Shown: positions 1-6,124, counted from the stretch's first letter. The stretch is DNA of 6,124 nt from a virus (IMGVR_UViG_3300020029_000001:1-6124), one strand, 5' to 3'. The notes: generated from the letters alone by a model not told the origin. Translations and numbers: made by a program.

Positions 1-121
1 CCAAAGTATTATAACGAGGCTCTGCTTGATCCGTCCTGGTTTATTCGAAAATTCAACGAACGCCTACGTCACAAACTCGGTCATTCGTTTAAACATGCTT
101 TTTTCCAGGAGTTTGGTACTC
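1..121. repeat. Terminal redundancy, left copy (exact duplicate of 6004-6124); signature of a circular 6003-nt molecule
   Basis: Read base by base, 1-121 (ccaaagtattataacgagg...ccaggagtttggtactc) is identical to 6004-6124. The Rep reading frame passes from 6003 into 6004 (=1) without interruption. Confidence 0.97.
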
Positions 122-807
122 ATCCAGAAACAGGAAGTGAGCCTCGATTGCATTTTCATGGCTTCTTATTTGGCACAAACGTCCTCTATAACACGATTCG
201 TTCTGCTGTTCGAGACCTTGGTTTTGTTTGGTTAGCGAAAGCAACCCACAAGCGTGCTCGTTACTGCGTTAAGTACGTCACTAAGCAAATTCAATTCAAC
301 CCCGATGAAATTTCGGATAAATATGTTACCGTAAATGGAAACCTTACACCTTTATCTTGCCTCCTCCAACATCGCCGTTATACGCGAAAATTCGTATCTG
401 CTGGCGTTGGTGACTTTCTTGGTTATATGCCTCGTCCTTCTTCTCGTGTCTCGTCGTGGTCTTATTTTGATATTGAGAAGCGTATCAATTATAATTACTC
501 GATTCCTCGATATTATCTTAGATACCTTAAACCGGAAGACGACGTTATTCGCTCGGTTGCCGCTGCTGATGCTTATTCACGTTTTAGCAAGTCTCCTCTG
601 GTTAAGCGTATTGTGTCTCTGTGTGTTGAGCGGTTCAACCTCAATTCCTCCGTATCCCGTAGAGAGAGCTATACGTGGGAGCAAAAGCAAATAATGCGTT
701 TTTCCGCCTCCTCTCACAAGATGCCTGATTTCGATCCTCCAACGTGGCTGGATTTGGACATTCTTCAATTTTGGAGAGATCACTATAAACTTCAACTAAA
801 CATTTAA
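1..807 (+). CDS. VP4: Replication initiation protein (Microviridae VP4 / phiX174 A-like HUH rolling-circle endonuclease), C-terminal 268 codons; the 5' part lies at 5740-6003 across the circular junction
   Basis: Frame 1 is open from base 1 (PKYYNEALLDPSWFIRKFNERLRHKLGHSFKHAFFQEFGTHPETGSEPRLHFHGFLFG...). The HUH motif is LHFHGFLF (148-171; H at 151-153 and 157-159). The two-tyrosine catalytic motif is YCVKYVTK (262-285; YxxKYxxK as in phiX174 protein A). The stop is at 805-807. The track's start at 148 is an internal TTG, not the true start. Confidence 0.93.
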   Translation, partial: PKYYNEALLDPSWFIRKFNERLRHKLGHSFKHAFFQEFGTHPETGSEPRLHFHGFLFGTNVLYNTIRSAVRDLGFVWLAKATHKRARYCVKYVTKQIQFNPDEISDKYVTVNGNLTPLSCLLQHRRYTRKFVSAGVGDFLGYMPRPSSRVSSWSYFDIEKRINYNYSIPRYYLRYLKPEDDVIRSVAAADAYSRFSKSPLVKRIVSLCVERFNLNSSVSRRESYTWEQKQIMRFSASSHKMPDFDPPTWLDLDILQFWRDHYKLQLNI

Positions 808-2913: not shown

Positions 2914-2943
2914 TATATCCTTTACTTGAAGATATATGCTACG

Positions 2944-3021
2944 TGCGCGGACCCCTTCTGTAAGAGTCCGTGAATTTCTGAAGGTTATTGGTAACGACTG
3001 CAGGAGAGGCCGCGCATTTTT
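2944..3021 (+). terminator. Long imperfect GC-clamped hairpin followed by a T5 run; possible intrinsic terminator or ssDNA structural element after the VP1/ORF98 unit
   Basis: tgcgcgg (2944-2950) pairs 7/7 with ccgcgca (3010-3016). After a bulged a2951, cc (2952-2953) pairs with gg (3008-3009). cttctg (2955-2960) pairs with caggag (3001-3006) with one T.G. An inner stem agtc (2965-2968) pairs with gact (2996-2999). ttttt follows at 3017-3021. The enclosed loop is long for a classical terminator. Confidence 0.3.
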
Positions 3022-3060
3022 CTATCGTTCTTTATTTAATTGTTTACACCATTGTGGCGA

Positions 3061-3116
3061 GGTGTCGCATTTCGCGGTTCGGAGAACCGCCCCGAACGAA
3101 GTGAGGGTGCGGCACC
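3061..3116 (+). other. GC-rich nested stem-loop with two mutually exclusive inner folds (structured DNA/RNA element of unknown role)
   Basis: The outer stem ggtgtcgc (3061-3068) pairs with gcggcacc (3109-3116), 8 pairs with one T.G. The inner perfect hairpin is gcggttc (3074-3080) / gaaccgc (3084-3090) with loop gga. An alternative fold is gttcgg (3077-3082) / ccgaac (3092-3097) plus ttc (3071-3073) / gaa (3098-3100). Confidence 0.5.
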
Positions 3117-3142
3117 GTAGCTTCCCTTAAATTTTCAATATC

Positions 3143-3334
3143 ATGTCAGACGCTAAACAACCTTTCTATAAATCAAAGGCTTTCTGGACGCTCGTTTCAT
3201 CTATCATTGCTGCGTTGGCTGCCTTTTTTCTCTCTTCTTGTTCAGCTCAAGCTAGGATGCAGCGTAGTGGCGTTCATATTGACACAGTTCGCGTTGATTA
3301 CATCATTCGTTCTAACAATTTAACCCACATATAG
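3143..3334 (+). CDS. Small predicted lipoprotein / membrane peptide, 63 aa (candidate lysis or superinfection-exclusion factor)
   Basis: The sequence has the layout of a type II signal peptide. The n-region is Lys-bearing (MSDAKQPFYKSKAF) and the h-region is WTLVSSIIAALAAFF. The lipobox is L-S-S-C, with Cys33 encoded at 3239-3241. The mature peptide is 31 aa. The stop TAG (3332-3334) lies 1 nt before the VP2 ATG. Confidence 0.6.
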   Translation: MSDAKQPFYKSKAFWTLVSSIIAALAAFFLSSCSAQARMQRSGVHIDTVRVDYIIRSNNLTHI

Positions 3335-3335
3335 T

Positions 3336-4586
3336 ATGCCTGATCATATTGTTGCCTCTTCCTTTGGCCAGGCTCTTGGTCAGTCGGCCGCATCTACTGG
3401 TACTACCGGTTTAATTTCTGGCGCGCTCGGTCAACTTTTTGGAGGCATGAATGCCCGCCGACAGTGGAAATATCAGCAAAAACAAATGGCTCTTCAGCAA
3501 AAGTACTCTTTAGAGCAAATGCAAAAACAATCTGAGTTATCCTACGCTAATTGGCAGAAACAGTTCGATTATGAGAATGCTTACAACGATCCTTCGAAGG
3601 TCTTTGATCGTTATTTAAAGGCTGGTGTAACCCCCGCCGCCGCTTTAGGCTCTTCCGGTGTTGGCGTAAATGCCACTATGTCAGGAGGTTCTGCGTCTAC
3701 ACCCTCTGCTTCTGGTCCCTCCGGCGGCTCCCCGATTGCCCCTGGTGGCTTTGCTCCTGTTGATCCTACCTCTATTGCTCAAAATATGATTGCCCAGTCT
3801 ACGGTTGACCGCAATACTGCTGCCGCTAATCGAGATGACGCGGAGGCTGATTTAATGCGTGGTAATACGCACAGCCTTGAATGGCGTAAAGATATGGATA
3901 CTCTTGAAAAGAAAGCTCTTGAGCACAACATTAATAACGTACAAGAACTCGTTCGTCTTAATCGTGCTCTTGCTGATATACACGCTGCTGATGCTGAGTA
4001 CGCTGATCTTATGGCTACTTACAAATTTCAAGACTTTGTGGCTATGTACGCGAAGCATGTCGAGGAAGCGAATCAGATTAAGCGATTCAATGATAAGTAT
4101 TTCGACTCTGTTTATGCTGCACAGGTCGCTCGAGATTATGCTGCTGCCTTCGAATCTGCCGCCTCTGGCGACGTCTTGAATGTTGAATCTGAAATACGTA
4201 AAGTTAATCTGGCTGATCTTCGCGAGTGGTTCGCCCTTAATTGGGATTCGGAAATCGACGTTCCCGAGGTTAATGAGAAGGGCAAACCTACCGGCAAGAC
4301 GATTAAGATGACAGGTCGCCAGATTCATCAGAGACTAATGGGCTTAGCCGCCTCGGAAGGTGAGCAGGGACTCTCAGGCCGTTGGTTTCAAAACCGATCA
4401 AGTAAAAACGCTTTTGGCTATAGTATGGCTAGAACTGCTTTGTCTGGCGCCATAGCCATCGCCGGCTCGGCTGTCGCGAAGCGTCCTGTTTCTGTCGGTT
4501 ATGAAGAAAGTAGAGAAAATTACGATAAATACGGTGAGTATTCTGGAGGCTCGAGAGTCACCCGTCGCAATATGATGACAAAATGA
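3336..4586 (+). CDS. VP2: Minor capsid / DNA pilot protein (Microviridae VP2, phiX174 H analogue), 416 aa
   Basis: The N-terminus is Gly-zipper-like (GQALGQSAASTGTTGLISGALGQLFGG). It is followed by a Q/K-rich helical block ending in YENAYNDPSKVFDRYLKAGVTPAAALG. That ending resembles the conserved ...YN.P..Q..R...AGLNP... signature of gokushovirus-type VP2. Next come a G/S/P/A linker and a long charged helical region. The position downstream of VP1 is canonical. Confidence 0.8.
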   Translation: MPDHIVASSFGQALGQSAASTGTTGLISGALGQLFGGMNARRQWKYQQKQMALQQKYSLEQMQKQSELSYANWQKQFDYENAYNDPSKVFDRYLKAGVTPAAALGSSGVGVNATMSGGSASTPSASGPSGGSPIAPGGFAPVDPTSIAQNMIAQSTVDRNTAAANRDDAEADLMRGNTHSLEWRKDMDTLEKKALEHNINNVQELVRLNRALADIHAADAEYADLMATYKFQDFVAMYAKHVEEANQIKRFNDKYFDSVYAAQVARDYAAAFESAASGDVLNVESEIRKVNLADLREWFALNWDSEIDVPEVNEKGKPTGKTIKMTGRQIHQRLMGLAASEGEQGLSGRWFQNRSSKNAFGYSMARTALSGAIAIAGSAVAKRPVSVGYEESRENYDKYGEYSGGSRVTRRNMMTK

Positions 4587-4632
4587 ACAATCTCCCCGAC
4601 CTTTTGAACTTTACTACTCATTCTTTTTGCCG

Positions 4633-4640
4633 TATATTTG
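4633..4640 (+). promoter_or_regulatory. Candidate Bacteroides-type -7 promoter element (TAnnTTTG)
   Basis: tatatttg matches the Bacteroides -7 consensus TAnnTTTG exactly. It sits in the 80-nt spacer, 27 nt upstream of the ATG at 4667. TTTG motifs lie upstream at 4603-4606 and 4626-4629, but neither has the usual ~19-21 nt spacing. The same 8-mer pattern also occurs inside coding regions (1080, 2817, 5563, 5710), so a chance match is plausible. Confidence 0.25.
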
Positions 4641-4666
4641 TATCGTAAACCAATAACCACACTACC

Positions 4667-4987
4667 ATGAAAAAAGTAAGTAAAAAGTCCAGAACTGACG
4701 ATCTGTTAATTGACCTTGTAGAGTACATGTTCGTTGAGTGGCTTGTTCGTCGAGGTGTATTTACCGCTTTTAAGTCGAATTACGAGCATGCCTTTTCGCT
4801 TCGTGCGGGCTTCCGTGAACGCCTTCGCGGTCAGATTCGACGCGCTCTCAATGGTTCTGGTTTCGGCGTAAGCCACCTTATCACTTCCTCGTTTCTGTTT
4901 ACTTCGACACCTGAAGGTGTCAAGTTTTGGGGCAAAGAGTCTGCCGCCTGGGAGCGTTTTTGCGTTAAATTCCAAGTAAAACTTTAA
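4667..4987 (+). CDS. Hypothetical protein, 106 aa
   Basis: ATG ORF with an A-rich leader and a Lys-rich N-terminus (MKKVSKKSR). It is basic and helical-looking, with the C-terminal motif FLFTSTPEGVKFWGKESAAWERF. It is the first gene after the VP2 spacer. The only overlapping ORF is antisense. Confidence 0.6.
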   Translation: MKKVSKKSRTDDLLIDLVEYMFVEWLVRRGVFTAFKSNYEHAFSLRAGFRERLRGQIRRALNGSGFGVSHLITSSFLFTSTPEGVKFWGKESAAWERFCVKFQVKL

Positions 4988-4998
4988 ATTATATTACT

Positions 4999-5322
4999 AT
5001 GACACAGATTCATATCGTTGTCCGGCGTGTTAGTCCGGCCCTCAAGGTTGACCTCGTCCAGATAGGTCGTCTCAAAGATGGTCAGTTTGATCCACTTCCT
5101 CTCGGCGCTTTTGCGAACACTCCTATTGCACGCTTCTTGGAGAGTTCGGATATTAGCGACTCACTTTACGTCAAACACTCGAAAATTACTGATCTTATTG
5201 CTGCTTGTGAAGGTCTCCCCGGCTTTGGCGTCGAGTTTTTTGACAATACGATAGTTCTCATGTTCGATTTTGATCTCAACTACGATGAAGGCGCGACGAA
5301 AGAAGAAGGGAAAGGGCACTAA
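4999..5322 (+). CDS. Hypothetical protein, 107 aa, acidic C-terminal tail
   Basis: ATG ORF starting 11 nt after the preceding stop, on the same strand. It ends in FDFDLNYDEGATKEEGKGH. I recognise no family motif. Confidence 0.6.
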   Translation: MTQIHIVVRRVSPALKVDLVQIGRLKDGQFDPLPLGAFANTPIARFLESSDISDSLYVKHSKITDLIAACEGLPGFGVEFFDNTIVLMFDFDLNYDEGATKEEGKGH

Positions 5323-5365
5323 AGTTGTGACCCGCCCGCTTGGTGGAAGAGTTCTTTGATGCAGT

Positions 5366-5417: not shown

Positions 5418-5513
5418 CGAGCCGTTAAGAGCGCGGCGAGTAAGTGTTTCCGGAGCCGATGATATCGCGGACGCGAGATCGAGGCCCGAAACAGCGCAGC
5501 CCGCTTAGGCTCG
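5418..5513 (+). other. About 96-nt nested, imperfect extended hairpin (candidate ssDNA origin/primosome-type or regulatory structure)
   Basis: Three concentric inverted repeats are present. The outer one is cgagcc (5418-5423) / ggctcg (5508-5513), plus taag (5426-5429) / ctta (5504-5507). The middle one is gtttccgg (5446-5453) / cccgaaac (5485-5492), with 7 of 8 pairs. The apical hairpin is gatatcgc (5461-5468) / gcgagatc (5473-5480), with 7 of 8 pairs and loop ggac. Confidence 0.45.
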
Positions 5514-5539
5514 TGTTTTGTGAATTAATTTTTTTAACC

Positions 5540-5740
5540 ATGGATTGCATCGACTTTAGACCTAGTTTTGCCCCCATTGTTAACGGCTCCCCGCTTCGTT
5601 ATTCCGTTGGCATGTACCGCGGTAAGAAGCGAATTATCGTCGCCTGGTTTTCCGACGAATCTCCTGCGTTCGAGTACCTTGCTCGTTGTCGTCGTGATAA
5701 TCCTTACGCTAAGTTTGATTGTATTCAAAGTTTGTTCTAA
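5540..5740 (+). CDS. Hypothetical small protein, 66 aa, translationally coupled to Rep
   Basis: I prefer the ATG at 5540 (preceded by gaattaatttttttaacc) over the track's GTG at 5444. The 32-codon extension from 5444 would run through the structured GC-rich spacer. The stop TAA (5738-5740) shares its last base with the Rep ATG (5740-5742), reading TAATG. Confidence 0.5.
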   Translation: MDCIDFRPSFAPIVNGSPLRYSVGMYRGKKRIIVAWFSDESPAFEYLARCRRDNPYAKFDCIQSLF

Positions 5741-6124
5741 TGCCTTGTTCTTCTCCCATATGGATACGTAATCGGCGCTATTTCGACAAGAAGAACCCTT
5801 GTCGTGATGGCTCCGATGTTGCTAAGTCCGCCCTGGCCCTTCGTCCCTGGGATATCGCCCGCCAGTGGCTTATGGTTCCGTGTGGAAAATGCGAAGACTG
5901 TCTGCGTCGTCAGCGTAATGATTGGTTCGTTCGGCTCGAACGCGAGCTTGCTCGTTGTAAGGCTGATAGTCTGCAGGCTATTTTTATTACAATCACGATC
6001 GCCCCAAAGTATTATAACGAGGCTCTGCTTGATCCGTCCTGGTTTATTCGAAAATTCAACGAACGCCTACGTCACAAACTCGGTCATTCGTTTAAACATG
6101 CTTTTTTCCAGGAGTTTGGTACTC
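5740..6124 (+). CDS. VP4: Replication initiation protein VP4, N-terminal part (runs off the window end; continues at base 1 on the circle)
   Basis: The ATG at 5740 opens MPCSSPIWIRNRRYFDKKNPCRDG...WLMVPCGKCEDCLRRQRNDWFVRLERELARCKADSLQAIFITITIAPKYYNE... It has the typical microvirus VP4 N-terminus (M-x-C-x-x-P). It has a PCGxCxxC cysteine cluster (Cys codons at 5881-5883, 5890-5892 and 5899-5901). RCR motif I is FITIT (5983-5997). There is no stop before the window end, and the frame is the same as 1-807. Confidence 0.92.
   Translation, partial: MPCSSPIWIRNRRYFDKKNPCRDGSDVAKSALALRPWDIARQWLMVPCGKCEDCLRRQRNDWFVRLERELARCKADSLQAIFITITIAPKYYNEALLDPSWFIRKFNERLRHKLGHSFKHAFFQEFGT
6004..6124. repeat. 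Terminal redundancy, right copy (exact duplicate of 1-121)
   Basis: 121/121 identity with 1-121. Confidence 0.97.

What the first reader, a model, noticed from the sequence alone, without database searches (positions are those of the whole stretch)
3143..3334. Tiny lipoprotein gene directly upstream of VP2: candidate lysis or superinfection-exclusion factor
The 63-aa ORF has the complete layout of a type II (lipoprotein) signal. It has Lys residues in the n-region, an ~17-residue hydrophobic core, and the lipobox L-S-S-C (Cys33). Processing would leave a 31-aa lipopeptide (CSAQARMQRSGVHIDTVRVDYIIRSNNLTHI). It ends 1 nt before the VP2 start, so it is probably co-expressed with a structural gene. 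No core Microviridae protein is a lipoprotein. The only well-characterised microvirus lysis protein (phiX174 E) is an unrelated N-terminal TM peptide, and non-phiX microviruses have no established lysis gene. Known roles for small phage lipoproteins are outer-membrane spanin function (Rz1-type) and receptor masking (T5 Llp, Cor). Either role would be new for this family.
Basis: partly seen in the sequence, partly recalled or inferred. Interest (0 to 1): 0.72.

Follow-up and report, generated by a model that had tools for sequence, protein, structure and literature searches.

The report
Conserved tiny lipoprotein in gut microviruses
A 63-codon gene just before the DNA-pilot gene of this 6-kb gut microvirus is real, is the best-conserved gene in the genome, and encodes a lipid-anchored 31-residue beta-hairpin peptide that probably attacks or modifies the host cell envelope (lysis most likely, exclusion of rival phages second), but its function is not shown.

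Summary
ORF 3143-3334 encodes 63 aa with Lys-rich N-terminus, a 20-residue uncharged helix, lipobox L-S-S-C33, and stops 1 nt before the VP2 ATG. It is a genuine gene: 79 of 79 usable relatives carry it, dN/dS is 0.056 with near-saturated synonymous sites, and it is the most conserved protein of the genome. The lipobox Cys is invariant, and residue -1 is S/G/A in 167 of 167 family members. The same hairpin also occurs behind an unrelated signal peptide that again ends in a lipobox. The mature part is predicted to be a cationic amphipathic beta-hairpin with an invariant G-x-H-x-D tip. It has no acidic Bacteroidota surface-export signal, so it should face the periplasm. A second microvirus clade, including Alistipes prophages, has Rep and VP1 under 30% identical but keeps the module at 62-80%. 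No known family matches it. Function is inferred only: lysis or release effector is my best guess (about 0.4), superinfection exclusion next. The elimination argument for lysis is weakened. A 119-aa hydrophobic ORF overprinted in Rep (335-694) shows strong suppression of synonymous change and is a rival lysis candidate. One NCBI record already calls the protein "lipoprotein".

The parts
3143..3334 (+). Lipoprotein precursor gene, 63 codons plus TAG
   Evidence: ORF listed. 384 clusters at 86-98% identity. Present in 79/79 usable relatives. dN/dS 0.056.
3143..3238 (+). Signal peptide, codons 1-32: n-region MSDAKQPFYKSK, h-region A13-S32
   Evidence: Kyte-Doolittle 19-residue maximum 2.0, the only such segment among the non-overlapping genes. 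AF2 helix 12-32. dN/dS 0.05.
3230..3241 (+). Lipobox L30-S31-S32-C33; C33 (3239-3241) is the predicted lipidation and cleavage site
   Evidence: PS51257 rule met. Cys invariant, -1 = S153/G10/A4, in 167 sequences. Lipobox retained behind an unrelated signal peptide in L084.
3239..3331 (+). Mature 31-aa lipopeptide: strand S34-S42 (3242-3268), turn G43-D47 (3269-3283), strand T48-R56 (3284-3310)
   Evidence: AF2 on 24 diverse sequences, mean pLDDT 82, E34-42/E48-56. Alternating polar/apolar faces, 4 Arg, 2 Asp, 2 His. G43, H45, D47 invariant across the family. No D/E at +2..+6 in 164/167.
3332..3338 (+). TAG-T-ATG junction between the lipoprotein gene and VP2 (probable termination-reinitiation coupling)
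   Evidence: Stop, one base, then ATG in 70/70 relatives. No Shine-Dalgarno-like sequence before any gene.
3336..4586 (+). VP2 DNA pilot protein gene, downstream partner in this clade
   Evidence: phrog_8689 pilot protein, E 2e-8. 45-86% identity among relatives whose lipoprotein is typically 84-97% identical.
2920..3034 (+). Conserved non-coding element directly upstream: CTTTACTTGAnGATATATG, long hairpin (stem 2943-2950 / 3010-3017), then TTTTTCTATCGTTCTTTA. Candidate terminator/attenuator and possibly an origin.
   Evidence: Nearly invariant in 52 relatives, with G-C to A-U covariation. No codon periodicity. The stem is rebuilt with different sequence in L085. Flank conserved in 79 loci.
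3035..3130 (+). About 96-nt GC-rich insertion in the 5' leader of the lipoprotein gene; boundaries approximate
   Evidence: Present in the window and 16 of 70 relatives, absent from the 54 others. Folds into a hairpin. Exact core found only in 13 microvirus contigs of this type. No Rfam match.

Best explanation
ORF 3143-3334 is a real, strongly constrained gene for a Bacteroidota-type lipoprotein precursor.

Inferred pathway (not shown): the Lys-rich N-terminus and the 20-residue helix take the precursor through Sec. Lgt lipidates C33 and signal peptidase II cuts before it. [quoted passage not shown]

Predicted structure: the peptide folds as a cationic, amphipathic two-stranded beta-hairpin. 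Its invariant G-x-H-x-D tip points away from the membrane.

Inferred function: the hairpin binds a conserved periplasmic or membrane component of the Bacteroidales envelope. As it accumulates together with VP2, it compromises the envelope so that progeny are released. In other words, it would be the lysis or release effector of a phage that has no endolysin. In layout it works like the small lysis lipoproteins of colicin plasmids, but it is not related to them. It may act together with, or be secondary to, the hydrophobic protein overprinted in Rep.
For: Gene reality and constraint:
- dN/dS is 0.056 with pS 0.60, and codon-position 3 varies four to nine times more than positions 1 and 2.
- Median identity to relatives is 90.5%, the highest of all genes (Rep 88.8, VP1 68.6, VP2 69.6).

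Lipoprotein identity:
- The PS51257 rule is met.
- The Cys is invariant and residue -1 is S/G/A in 167/167.
- Two unrelated signal peptides both end in a lipobox directly before the same hairpin.
- Several unrelated about 30-aa mature peptides follow the same signal peptide and Cys. One of them, type B, is also predicted to be a beta-hairpin.

Periplasmic orientation:
- No D/E at +2..+6 in 164/167.
- CS(D/E)2 is needed for surface exposure in Bacteroides (PMC6222051).

Host:
- The only hits in 185,579 species genomes are two Alistipes prophages.
- No Shine-Dalgarno sequences are present.

Host-directed, cassette-like module:
- It is 62-80% identical between clades whose Rep and VP1 are 24-30% identical.
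- It is present in all 9 genomes of the second clade.

Lysis argument:
- No peptidase, endolysin or holin family was found in any ORF.
- This is the only non-overlapping gene with a membrane-spanning segment.
- phiHBP1-like Bacteroides microviruses carry an M15 peptidase and no such lipoprotein. The 85 lipoprotein-bearing loci carry no M15.
- Precedent: colicin lysis proteins are 47-aa lipoprotein precursors with 28-aa mature lipopeptides, and they permeabilise the envelope (PMC2896534).
Against: - No experiment, and no SPase II predictor could be run.
- The h-region is long (20 residues), so an uncleaved membrane anchor is not excluded.
- The elimination argument is weak. A 119-aa, 2-3 TM ORF in the +1 frame of Rep (335-694) keeps the same start and stop in 53/64 relatives. 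It coincides with a drop of Rep third-position entropy from about 1.1-1.3 to 0.33-0.55. It could be the E-like lysis gene.
- The M15 versus lipoprotein complementarity is confounded by phylogeny and rests on only 4 M15 genomes.
- A colicin-type permeabilisation does not by itself breach peptidoglycan for 25-nm virions.
- The gene may be the first one after the main non-coding region, which would suit an early exclusion function as well.
- In the second clade most copies run on as 170-230-aa ORFs ending in a J-like basic tail. The model does not explain this.
Confidence: 0.4

Rival explanations
1. Superinfection exclusion or progeny protection. The periplasm-facing lipopeptide binds the periplasmic face of the phage receptor (for example a TonB-dependent transporter, as T5 Llp does with FhuA) or blocks the incoming pilot/DNA conduit. 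Infected or lysogenic cells and their debris then no longer take up related microviruses.
For: - Small phage lipoproteins with this role are well known (Llp, Cor; own knowledge).
- The module occurs in Alistipes prophages.
- The gene may be the first one after the main non-coding region in both clades: one search shows no convincing ORF in the about 900 nt before it in L081, while L084 has small upstream ORFs; this was not tested systematically.
- Mature hairpins are swapped between lineages (types A, B and others), as expected in an arms race.
- Type B co-segregates with the adjacent VP2 lineage rather than with VP1.
Against: - Type A is almost invariant while VP1 and VP2, the host-range determinants, diverge to 45-70%.
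- It is kept at 62-80% across clades with VP2 about 30% identical.
- It is universal rather than patchy (79/79 and 9/9).
- The window's clade has no prophage among 185,579 species genomes.
- No similarity to Llp, Cor or any PADLOC family beyond weak signal-peptide-level hits.
Confidence: 0.25
2. Uncleaved bitopic membrane protein. The N-terminal hydrophobic helix is a permanent anchor (E-like or holin-like), the Cys is not lipidated, and the helix itself is the effector against a membrane enzyme.
For: - The uncharged stretch of 20 residues is long enough to span a bilayer.
- The helix is as constrained as the mature part (dN/dS 0.05).
- It is kept in front of several unrelated C-terminal peptides.
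- Known single-gene lysis proteins act through a TM helix (own knowledge; PMC12506998 abstract).
Against: - Residue -1 is restricted to S/G/A and the Cys is invariant in 167/167.
- An unrelated N-terminal helix in L084, P0147 and P0155 again ends in [ST/CS/PS]-C directly before the same hairpin.
- Charge bias favours N-in/C-out.
Confidence: 0.1
3. Accessory envelope factor with another role. Examples are outer-membrane disruption after another protein (such as the Rep-embedded ORF 335-694) has caused the primary lesion, or modulation of host envelope biogenesis during a chronic or carrier infection.
For: - There is a second membrane-protein candidate in the genome.
- Cationic peptides that disrupt the outer membrane at lysis have a precedent (phiKT gp28, bioRxiv 10.1101/515445).
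- The Bacteroides microvirus phiHBP1 gives turbid plaques (PMC13064476).
Against: - The embedded ORF is not detectable in the second clade, which still keeps the lipoprotein.
- There is no endolysin to make an outer-membrane step rate-limiting.
Confidence: 0.2

Closest known systems
Colicin lysis proteins / bacteriocin release proteins (Pfam PF02402 Lysis_col)
   Same: Both are very small lipoprotein precursors with a mature lipopeptide of about 28-33 aa. Both are encoded on a small selfish replicon without a holin-endolysin system. Both are expressed together with the cargo that has to leave the cell. In BRPs both the signal peptide and the mature part are functional (PMC2896534; references in PMC5727409).
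   Different: No sequence relationship (no Pfam hit at E <= 0.1). The host is Bacteroidota, not Enterobacteria. The mature part is a predicted beta-hairpin. Activation of outer-membrane phospholipase A is unknown here. The cargo is a 25-nm virion, which also needs the peptidoglycan to be breached.
T5 Llp and Cor (phi80, N15) superinfection-exclusion lipoproteins
   Same: Small phage-encoded lipoproteins that stay on the periplasmic side and act on an envelope protein. The gene sits next to a host-entry gene.
   Different: Llp is a 61-aa folded, disulfide-bonded domain from a dsDNA phage (own knowledge). There is no sequence or fold match here. The gene here is universal and far more conserved than the entry proteins.
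o-spanin Rz1 / unimolecular spanin
   Same: Phage lipoprotein of 40-60 aa acting in lysis (PMC6139136).
   Different: Spanins need an i-spanin partner or a C-terminal TM segment, and they need an endolysin. They are Pro-rich with Cys for disulfides. None of these features is present.
phiX174 E and other single-gene lysis proteins
   Same: One small membrane-targeted protein in a tiny genome that lacks a muralytic enzyme.
   Different: E is overprinted in gene D, keeps its N-terminal TM helix and has no lipobox. Here the gene is free-standing and has a lipobox. The E-like architecture in this genome is instead ORF 335-694 inside Rep.
Cationic amphipathic beta-hairpin antimicrobial peptides (protegrin, thanatin; phage phiKT gp28 as a lysis-associated cationic peptide)
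   Same: Size, net positive charge and a two-faced hairpin.
   Different: Those peptides are soluble, often disulfide-stapled, and act from outside or after endolysin action. This one would be lipid-anchored inside the periplasm. The resemblance is by shape only and was not tested.

Membership tests
Bacterial lipoprotein precursor (SPase II substrate; PROSITE PS51257 rule) | K or R within the first 7 residues, and an uncharged h-region before the lipobox | tested here: met
   K5 is present. A13-S32 is uncharged, with Kyte-Doolittle 19-residue maximum 2.0.
Bacterial lipoprotein precursor (SPase II substrate; PROSITE PS51257 rule) | Lipobox {DERK}6-[LIVMFWSTAG]2-[LIVMFYSTAGCQ]-[AGS]-C with the Cys at position 15-35 | tested here: met
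   AALAAF-FL-S-S-C33. It is the only one of 35 ATG-ORFs that passes. The chance rate is 0.16 per shuffled genome.
Bacterial lipoprotein precursor (SPase II substrate; PROSITE PS51257 rule) | Evolutionary retention of the Cys and of a small residue at -1 | tested here: met
   167/167 sequences. Also kept behind an unrelated signal peptide.
Bacterial lipoprotein precursor (SPase II substrate; PROSITE PS51257 rule) | Diacylglyceryl modification by Lgt and globomycin-sensitive cleavage by Lsp | not testable with these tools
   Needs labelling and globomycin experiments. SignalP and LipoP were not available.
Bacteroidota surface-exposed lipoprotein (LES-dependent) | Acidic residues at about +3/+4 after the Cys (CS(D/E)2, K-(D/E)2, Q-A-(D/E)2) | tested here: not met
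   The sequence is C-S-A-Q-A-R-M-Q-R. There are 0 acidic residues at +2..+6 in 164/167 members, and two basic residues at +2..+9 in 148/167. Criterion from PMC6222051.
Colicin lysis protein (Pfam PF02402) | Match to the family profile | tested here: not met
   No Pfam-A hit at E <= 0.1. No NCBIfam hit at E <= 1.
Colicin lysis protein (Pfam PF02402) | Precursor under 70 aa with a lipobox and a mature lipopeptide of about 30 aa | tested here: met
   63 aa, mature part 31 aa. BRP dimensions from PMC2896534.
Two-component or unimolecular spanin | Cognate i-spanin gene (type II TM plus periplasmic coiled coil) overlapping or adjacent, or a C-terminal TM segment, plus an endolysin in the genome | tested here: not met
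   There is no C-terminal hydrophobic segment. No endolysin, holin or peptidase family was found. The only neighbour is VP2, and in the second clade the gene is not next to VP2.
Llp / Cor exclusion lipoproteins | Sequence or fold relationship to Llp or Cor | tested here: not met
   No Pfam, PHROG, PADLOC or PDB sequence match, and no Foldseek match with E <= 0.001.
Llp / Cor exclusion lipoproteins | Blocks infection by binding the receptor | not testable with these tools
   Needs a cultured host and phage.
phiX174 E-type single-gene lysis protein | Uncleaved N-terminal TM helix; gene overprinted in another gene | tested here: not met
   The ORF is free-standing, with unconstrained third positions (pS 0.60), and it has a lipobox.

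The most novel reading that the evidence does not exclude
The hairpin lipopeptide is a new class of single-gene lysis effector, a lipoprotein 'protein antibiotic'. It would kill Bacteroidales from the periplasmic side by binding a conserved envelope-biogenesis component through its invariant G-x-H-x-D tip. This would explain how the many gut microviruses that lack a peptidase lyse their hosts. The alternative hairpins (type B and others) would then be interchangeable warheads on one delivery signal.
Probability: 0.3. Interest if true: 0.85.

Novelty: new variant of a known kind. Interest (0 to 1): 0.6.

Why it matters
How microviruses other than phiX174 leave their hosts is an old open question (PMC3394797). 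These phages are among the most abundant in animal guts. This gene is a concrete candidate that can be synthesised. It is small, universal in two deep clades of Bacteroidales-associated microviruses, and more conserved than the capsid and replication genes. That conservation implies a conserved host target. If it is the lysis effector, it would point to a new vulnerable step in the Bacteroidota envelope. It would also be a new way for a virus to use the host lipoprotein pathway. If instead it is an exclusion factor, it would be the first for the family. The comparative data also correct public annotation, because the 100-aa database forms are artefacts.

Tried and rejected
- **Family libraries.** Pfam, NCBIfam and PHROGs give nothing. 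The only hit is phrog_902 at E 0.096 over the helix.
- **PADLOC PDC-M02A.** E is 0.01 to 7e-4, but only 3 of 24 family members hit it. I treat this as similarity at the lipobox level. No paper mentions PDC-M02.
- **Structure comparison.** The PDB sequence search has nothing below E 0.78. The Foldseek search has nothing with E <= 0.001.
- **Rfam on the whole window.** No match.
- **The 100-aa database form.** The upstream 37 codons show no codon periodicity. They are a conserved hairpin element, and in the window the frame is interrupted by TAA at 3128-3130.
- **A lipoprotein-VP2 fusion suggested by GenBank MG945498.** The two genes are in different frames, and the VP2 start is mis-set.
- **L067 as a relative lacking the gene.** It is a chimeric contig.
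- **Alternative frames inside the ORF.** The +1 frame has at least one stop in 69/70 relatives, and the other frames have many. Third positions vary freely, so there is no dual coding.
- **Hits P0129 and P0174.** These are eukaryote-like repeat proteins and are false positives.
- **M15 peptidase versus lipoprotein complementarity.** The result is consistent (85 versus 4 loci with no overlap), but the sample is too small and phylogenetically confounded.
- **Promoter and terminator scan.** It uses sigma-70 rules and is not informative for Bacteroidota.
- **Literature searches.** I found no study of a microvirus lipoprotein.

Full report
**What the window is**

The window is a complete circular microvirus genome. 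Bases 1-121 repeat at 6004-6124, so the genome is 6003 nt. The gene order is:
- Rep, 5740 across the junction to 807
- VP1, 811-2604 (Phage_F / phrog_514)
- a 98-aa ORF, 2617-2913
- a 229-nt non-coding stretch
- the ORF in question, 3143-3334
- VP2, 3336-4586 (phrog_8689, pilot protein)
- then small ORFs

No gene has a Shine-Dalgarno sequence. All starts sit in A/T-rich leaders.

**The observation**

The ORF, its translation, the lipobox L-S-S-C33, the 31-aa mature part and the one-base gap to the VP2 ATG are exactly as described. The uncharged stretch is 20 residues (A13-S32). The PROSITE lipoprotein rule is met by this ORF alone among 35 ATG-ORFs. But 15% of shuffled genomes also produce one such ORF, so the motif alone proves little.

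**It is a real gene under strong selection**

- The protein search found 384 clusters at 86-98% identity.
- A VP2-based scan of viral contigs gave 80 loci. All but one carry the ORF directly before VP2. The exception, L067, is a chimeric contig.
- Over the window and 70 relatives (71 sequences), pN is 0.069, pS is 0.60 and dN/dS is 0.056.
- Entropy by codon position is 0.25/0.11/1.03.
- The signal part (dN/dS 0.05) is as constrained as the mature part (0.07). Every other frame is interrupted by stops in nearly all relatives.
- With a median 90.5% identity to the window, it is the best conserved protein of the genome (Rep 88.8, VP1 68.6, VP2 69.6).
- The stop-N-ATG junction is kept in 70/70 relatives.

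**The 100-aa database forms are artefacts**

About half of the database entries are 100 aa long and start MLRARTP... One of them is NCBI DAU60727.1, "MAG TPA: lipoprotein [Microviridae sp.]". This extension is not coding:
- It has no codon periodicity (0.13/0.14/0.20) and is far more conserved than synonymous sites.
- It folds as a hairpin with covarying pairs.
- The stem is rebuilt with a different sequence in a more distant relative.
- In the window and 16 of 70 relatives, a 96-nt insertion separates it from the gene and brings in a stop.

**Evidence that it is a lipoprotein**

- In 167 family members the Cys is invariant. Residue -1 is S, G or A in all, and -2 is mostly S/A/T/V.
- The strongest point is modularity.
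  - The usual signal peptide (..SKKFWTLVAAIVAALAAFF..) is found in front of at least four unrelated about 30-aa mature peptides.
  - Conversely, the type A hairpin is found behind an unrelated signal peptide (..PPWARISVIALLAALAVVLSLTSC in an Alistipes MAG; similar in P0147 and P0155).
  - In every combination a lipobox Cys sits at the junction.
- AlphaFold2 on 24 diverse sequences (mean pLDDT 82) gives a helix at 12-32 and a hairpin at 34-42/48-56.
- The strands alternate polar and apolar residues, and the peptide carries 4 Arg, 2 Asp and 2 His.
- G43, H45 and D47 at the hairpin tip are invariant across the whole family.
- Type B is also predicted to be a helix plus a hairpin, at lower confidence (pLDDT 70).
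- No acidic residue follows the Cys in 164/167 members. In Bacteroides the CS(D/E)2 signal is required for surface exposure (PMC6222051). The peptide should therefore stay on the periplasmic side.

**Distribution and host**

- A profile search of 1.84 billion representatives found 65 clusters. All that I checked are microviral, apart from two repeat-protein false positives.
- GenBank holds the gene in 30 gut microvirus records from pig, civet, deer, rodents, lemurs and tortoise. It is unannotated or labelled "hypothetical" there.
- A scan of one genome for each of 185,579 species found it only in two Alistipes genomes. Both copies lie inside microvirus prophages.
- A further prophage lies in a 660-kb metagenomic contig.
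- In this second clade Rep is 28-30% identical and VP1 24-29% identical to the window. The lipoprotein module is nevertheless 62-80% identical.
- All nine genomes of that clade carry it.
- There the gene lies upstream of Rep, not of VP2. In L081 no convincing ORF fills the roughly 900 nt before it, so it may be the first gene after the main non-coding region there as in the window's clade. I did not test this systematically, and L084 has small ORFs upstream.

**What it probably does**

Nothing in Pfam, NCBIfam, PHROGs, PADLOC, the PDB or Foldseek identifies it. The function is therefore inferred. Conservation that exceeds that of the hallmark genes, across clades that share only the host order, points to a conserved host target rather than a phage partner.

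Arguments for lysis:
- The genome has no peptidase, endolysin or holin.
- This is the only non-overlapping gene with a membrane-spanning segment.
- Bacteroides phage phiHBP1 and its relatives carry an M15 peptidase and no such lipoprotein. The 85 lipoprotein-bearing loci carry no M15.
- Colicin lysis proteins give a precedent for a 28-aa lipopeptide that permeabilises the envelope and is lethal when overproduced (PMC2896534). Their signal peptide is functional too (references in PMC5727409).

Arguments for exclusion:
- There are Llp/Cor precedents.
- The module occurs in prophages.
- Hairpin types are swapped between lineages.
- Type B co-segregates with the neighbouring VP2 lineage.

Arguments against exclusion:
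- The gene is universal rather than patchy.
- Type A stays nearly unchanged while VP1 and VP2 diverge.

**A finding that weakens the lysis-by-elimination argument**

The +1 frame of Rep holds a 119-aa ORF (335-694) with two or three hydrophobic segments. It has the same start and stop in 53 of 64 relatives. Rep's third-position entropy falls from about 1.1-1.3 to 0.33-0.55 exactly over this stretch, while positions 1 and 2 become more variable. That is the signature of an overprinted gene, in the position where phiX174 has B and K. A synonymous-codon shuffle of one genome alone did not make the open frame significant (P = 0.12). The ORF is not detectable in the second clade. It is a serious rival, or a partner, for the lysis role.

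**Verdict**

- The lipoprotein reading is well supported (about 0.85).
- The function is open. My estimates are 0.4 for lysis or release, 0.25 for exclusion, and the rest for other envelope roles.
- I found no paper on it. Public annotation has reached only the word "lipoprotein".

Noticed in passing
window 335-694 (+), inside Rep: A 119-aa hydrophobic ORF (2-3 TM segments) lies in the +1 frame of Rep. It has the same start and stop in 53/64 relatives. Rep third-position entropy drops from about 1.1-1.3 to 0.33-0.55 over exactly this stretch. It is probably an overprinted membrane protein and a candidate E/K-like lysis or accessory gene.
   Followed up: partly
window 5285-5359 (+): An unannotated 24-aa basic ORF, MKARRKKKGKGTKVVTRPLGGRVL, overlaps the end of the 107-aa ORF. 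It is present in 74/80 relatives. Its size and its C-terminal ..LGG..L motif resemble the J DNA-packaging proteins of alpha3 and phiX174 (resemblance from memory).
   Followed up: partly
L081 1512-2114; L083 6935-7585; L090-L094: In the second clade the lipoprotein ORF has no stop after the hairpin. It runs on for 110-160 codons through the +1 frame of another ORF and ends in the J-like tail RRGGRRG..PK.KTIPLGGSHL. About 35 clusters are 159-223 aa long. I could not decide whether this long product is real, processed, or a by-product of stop-poor +1 frames.
   Followed up: partly
window 2920-3034: A non-coding element is almost invariant in 52-79 relatives. It consists of CTTTACTTGAnGATATATG (which recalls the phiX174 origin core ACTTGATA, from memory), a long hairpin with covarying stem pairs, and then TTTTTCTATCGTTCTTTA. 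It is a candidate origin and/or terminator-attenuator between the capsid module and the lipoprotein-VP2 module.
   Followed up: partly
window about 3035-3130: A 96-nt GC-rich insertion lies in the leader of the lipoprotein gene. It is present in the window and 16 of 70 relatives and is nearly identical among carriers. L057 has one compensatory stem change. The exact core occurs only in 13 microvirus contigs of this type, and there is no Rfam match.
   Followed up: partly
window 1-121 and 6004-6124: An exact 121-nt terminal direct repeat. The record is a circular genome of 6003 nt, and Rep runs across the junction.
   Followed up: yes
window 5444-5740: The 98-aa GTG-started ORF is probably only 66 aa, starting at ATG 5540. 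Gene callers on identical relatives aa, and the upstream part carries stops in 14 relatives.
   Followed up: partly
L042, L060, L061, L064, L071 (for example L060 1764-1961): A type B allele has the same signal peptide and lipobox but an unrelated 35-aa mature peptide, CTTRHYVVQSASSVKSGDTTRTTITYEQVGNFKRP. It co-segregates with the VP2 lineage, not with VP1. Further mature types occur in P0169, P0171, P0176, P0178 and P0181.
   Followed up: partly
L085 (GenBank MG945498.1) 3396-3581 and 3403-5028: The deposited 'similar to VP2' feature starts too far upstream, in another frame, and so hides the 61-aa lipoprotein ORF. Several GenBank records do not annotate the gene at all.
   Followed up: yes
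L067 1-600: This IMG/VR contig is a chimera. A GC-rich GroES-like and scaffold-like segment is fused in frame to residue 59 of a microvirus VP2.
   Followed up: yes
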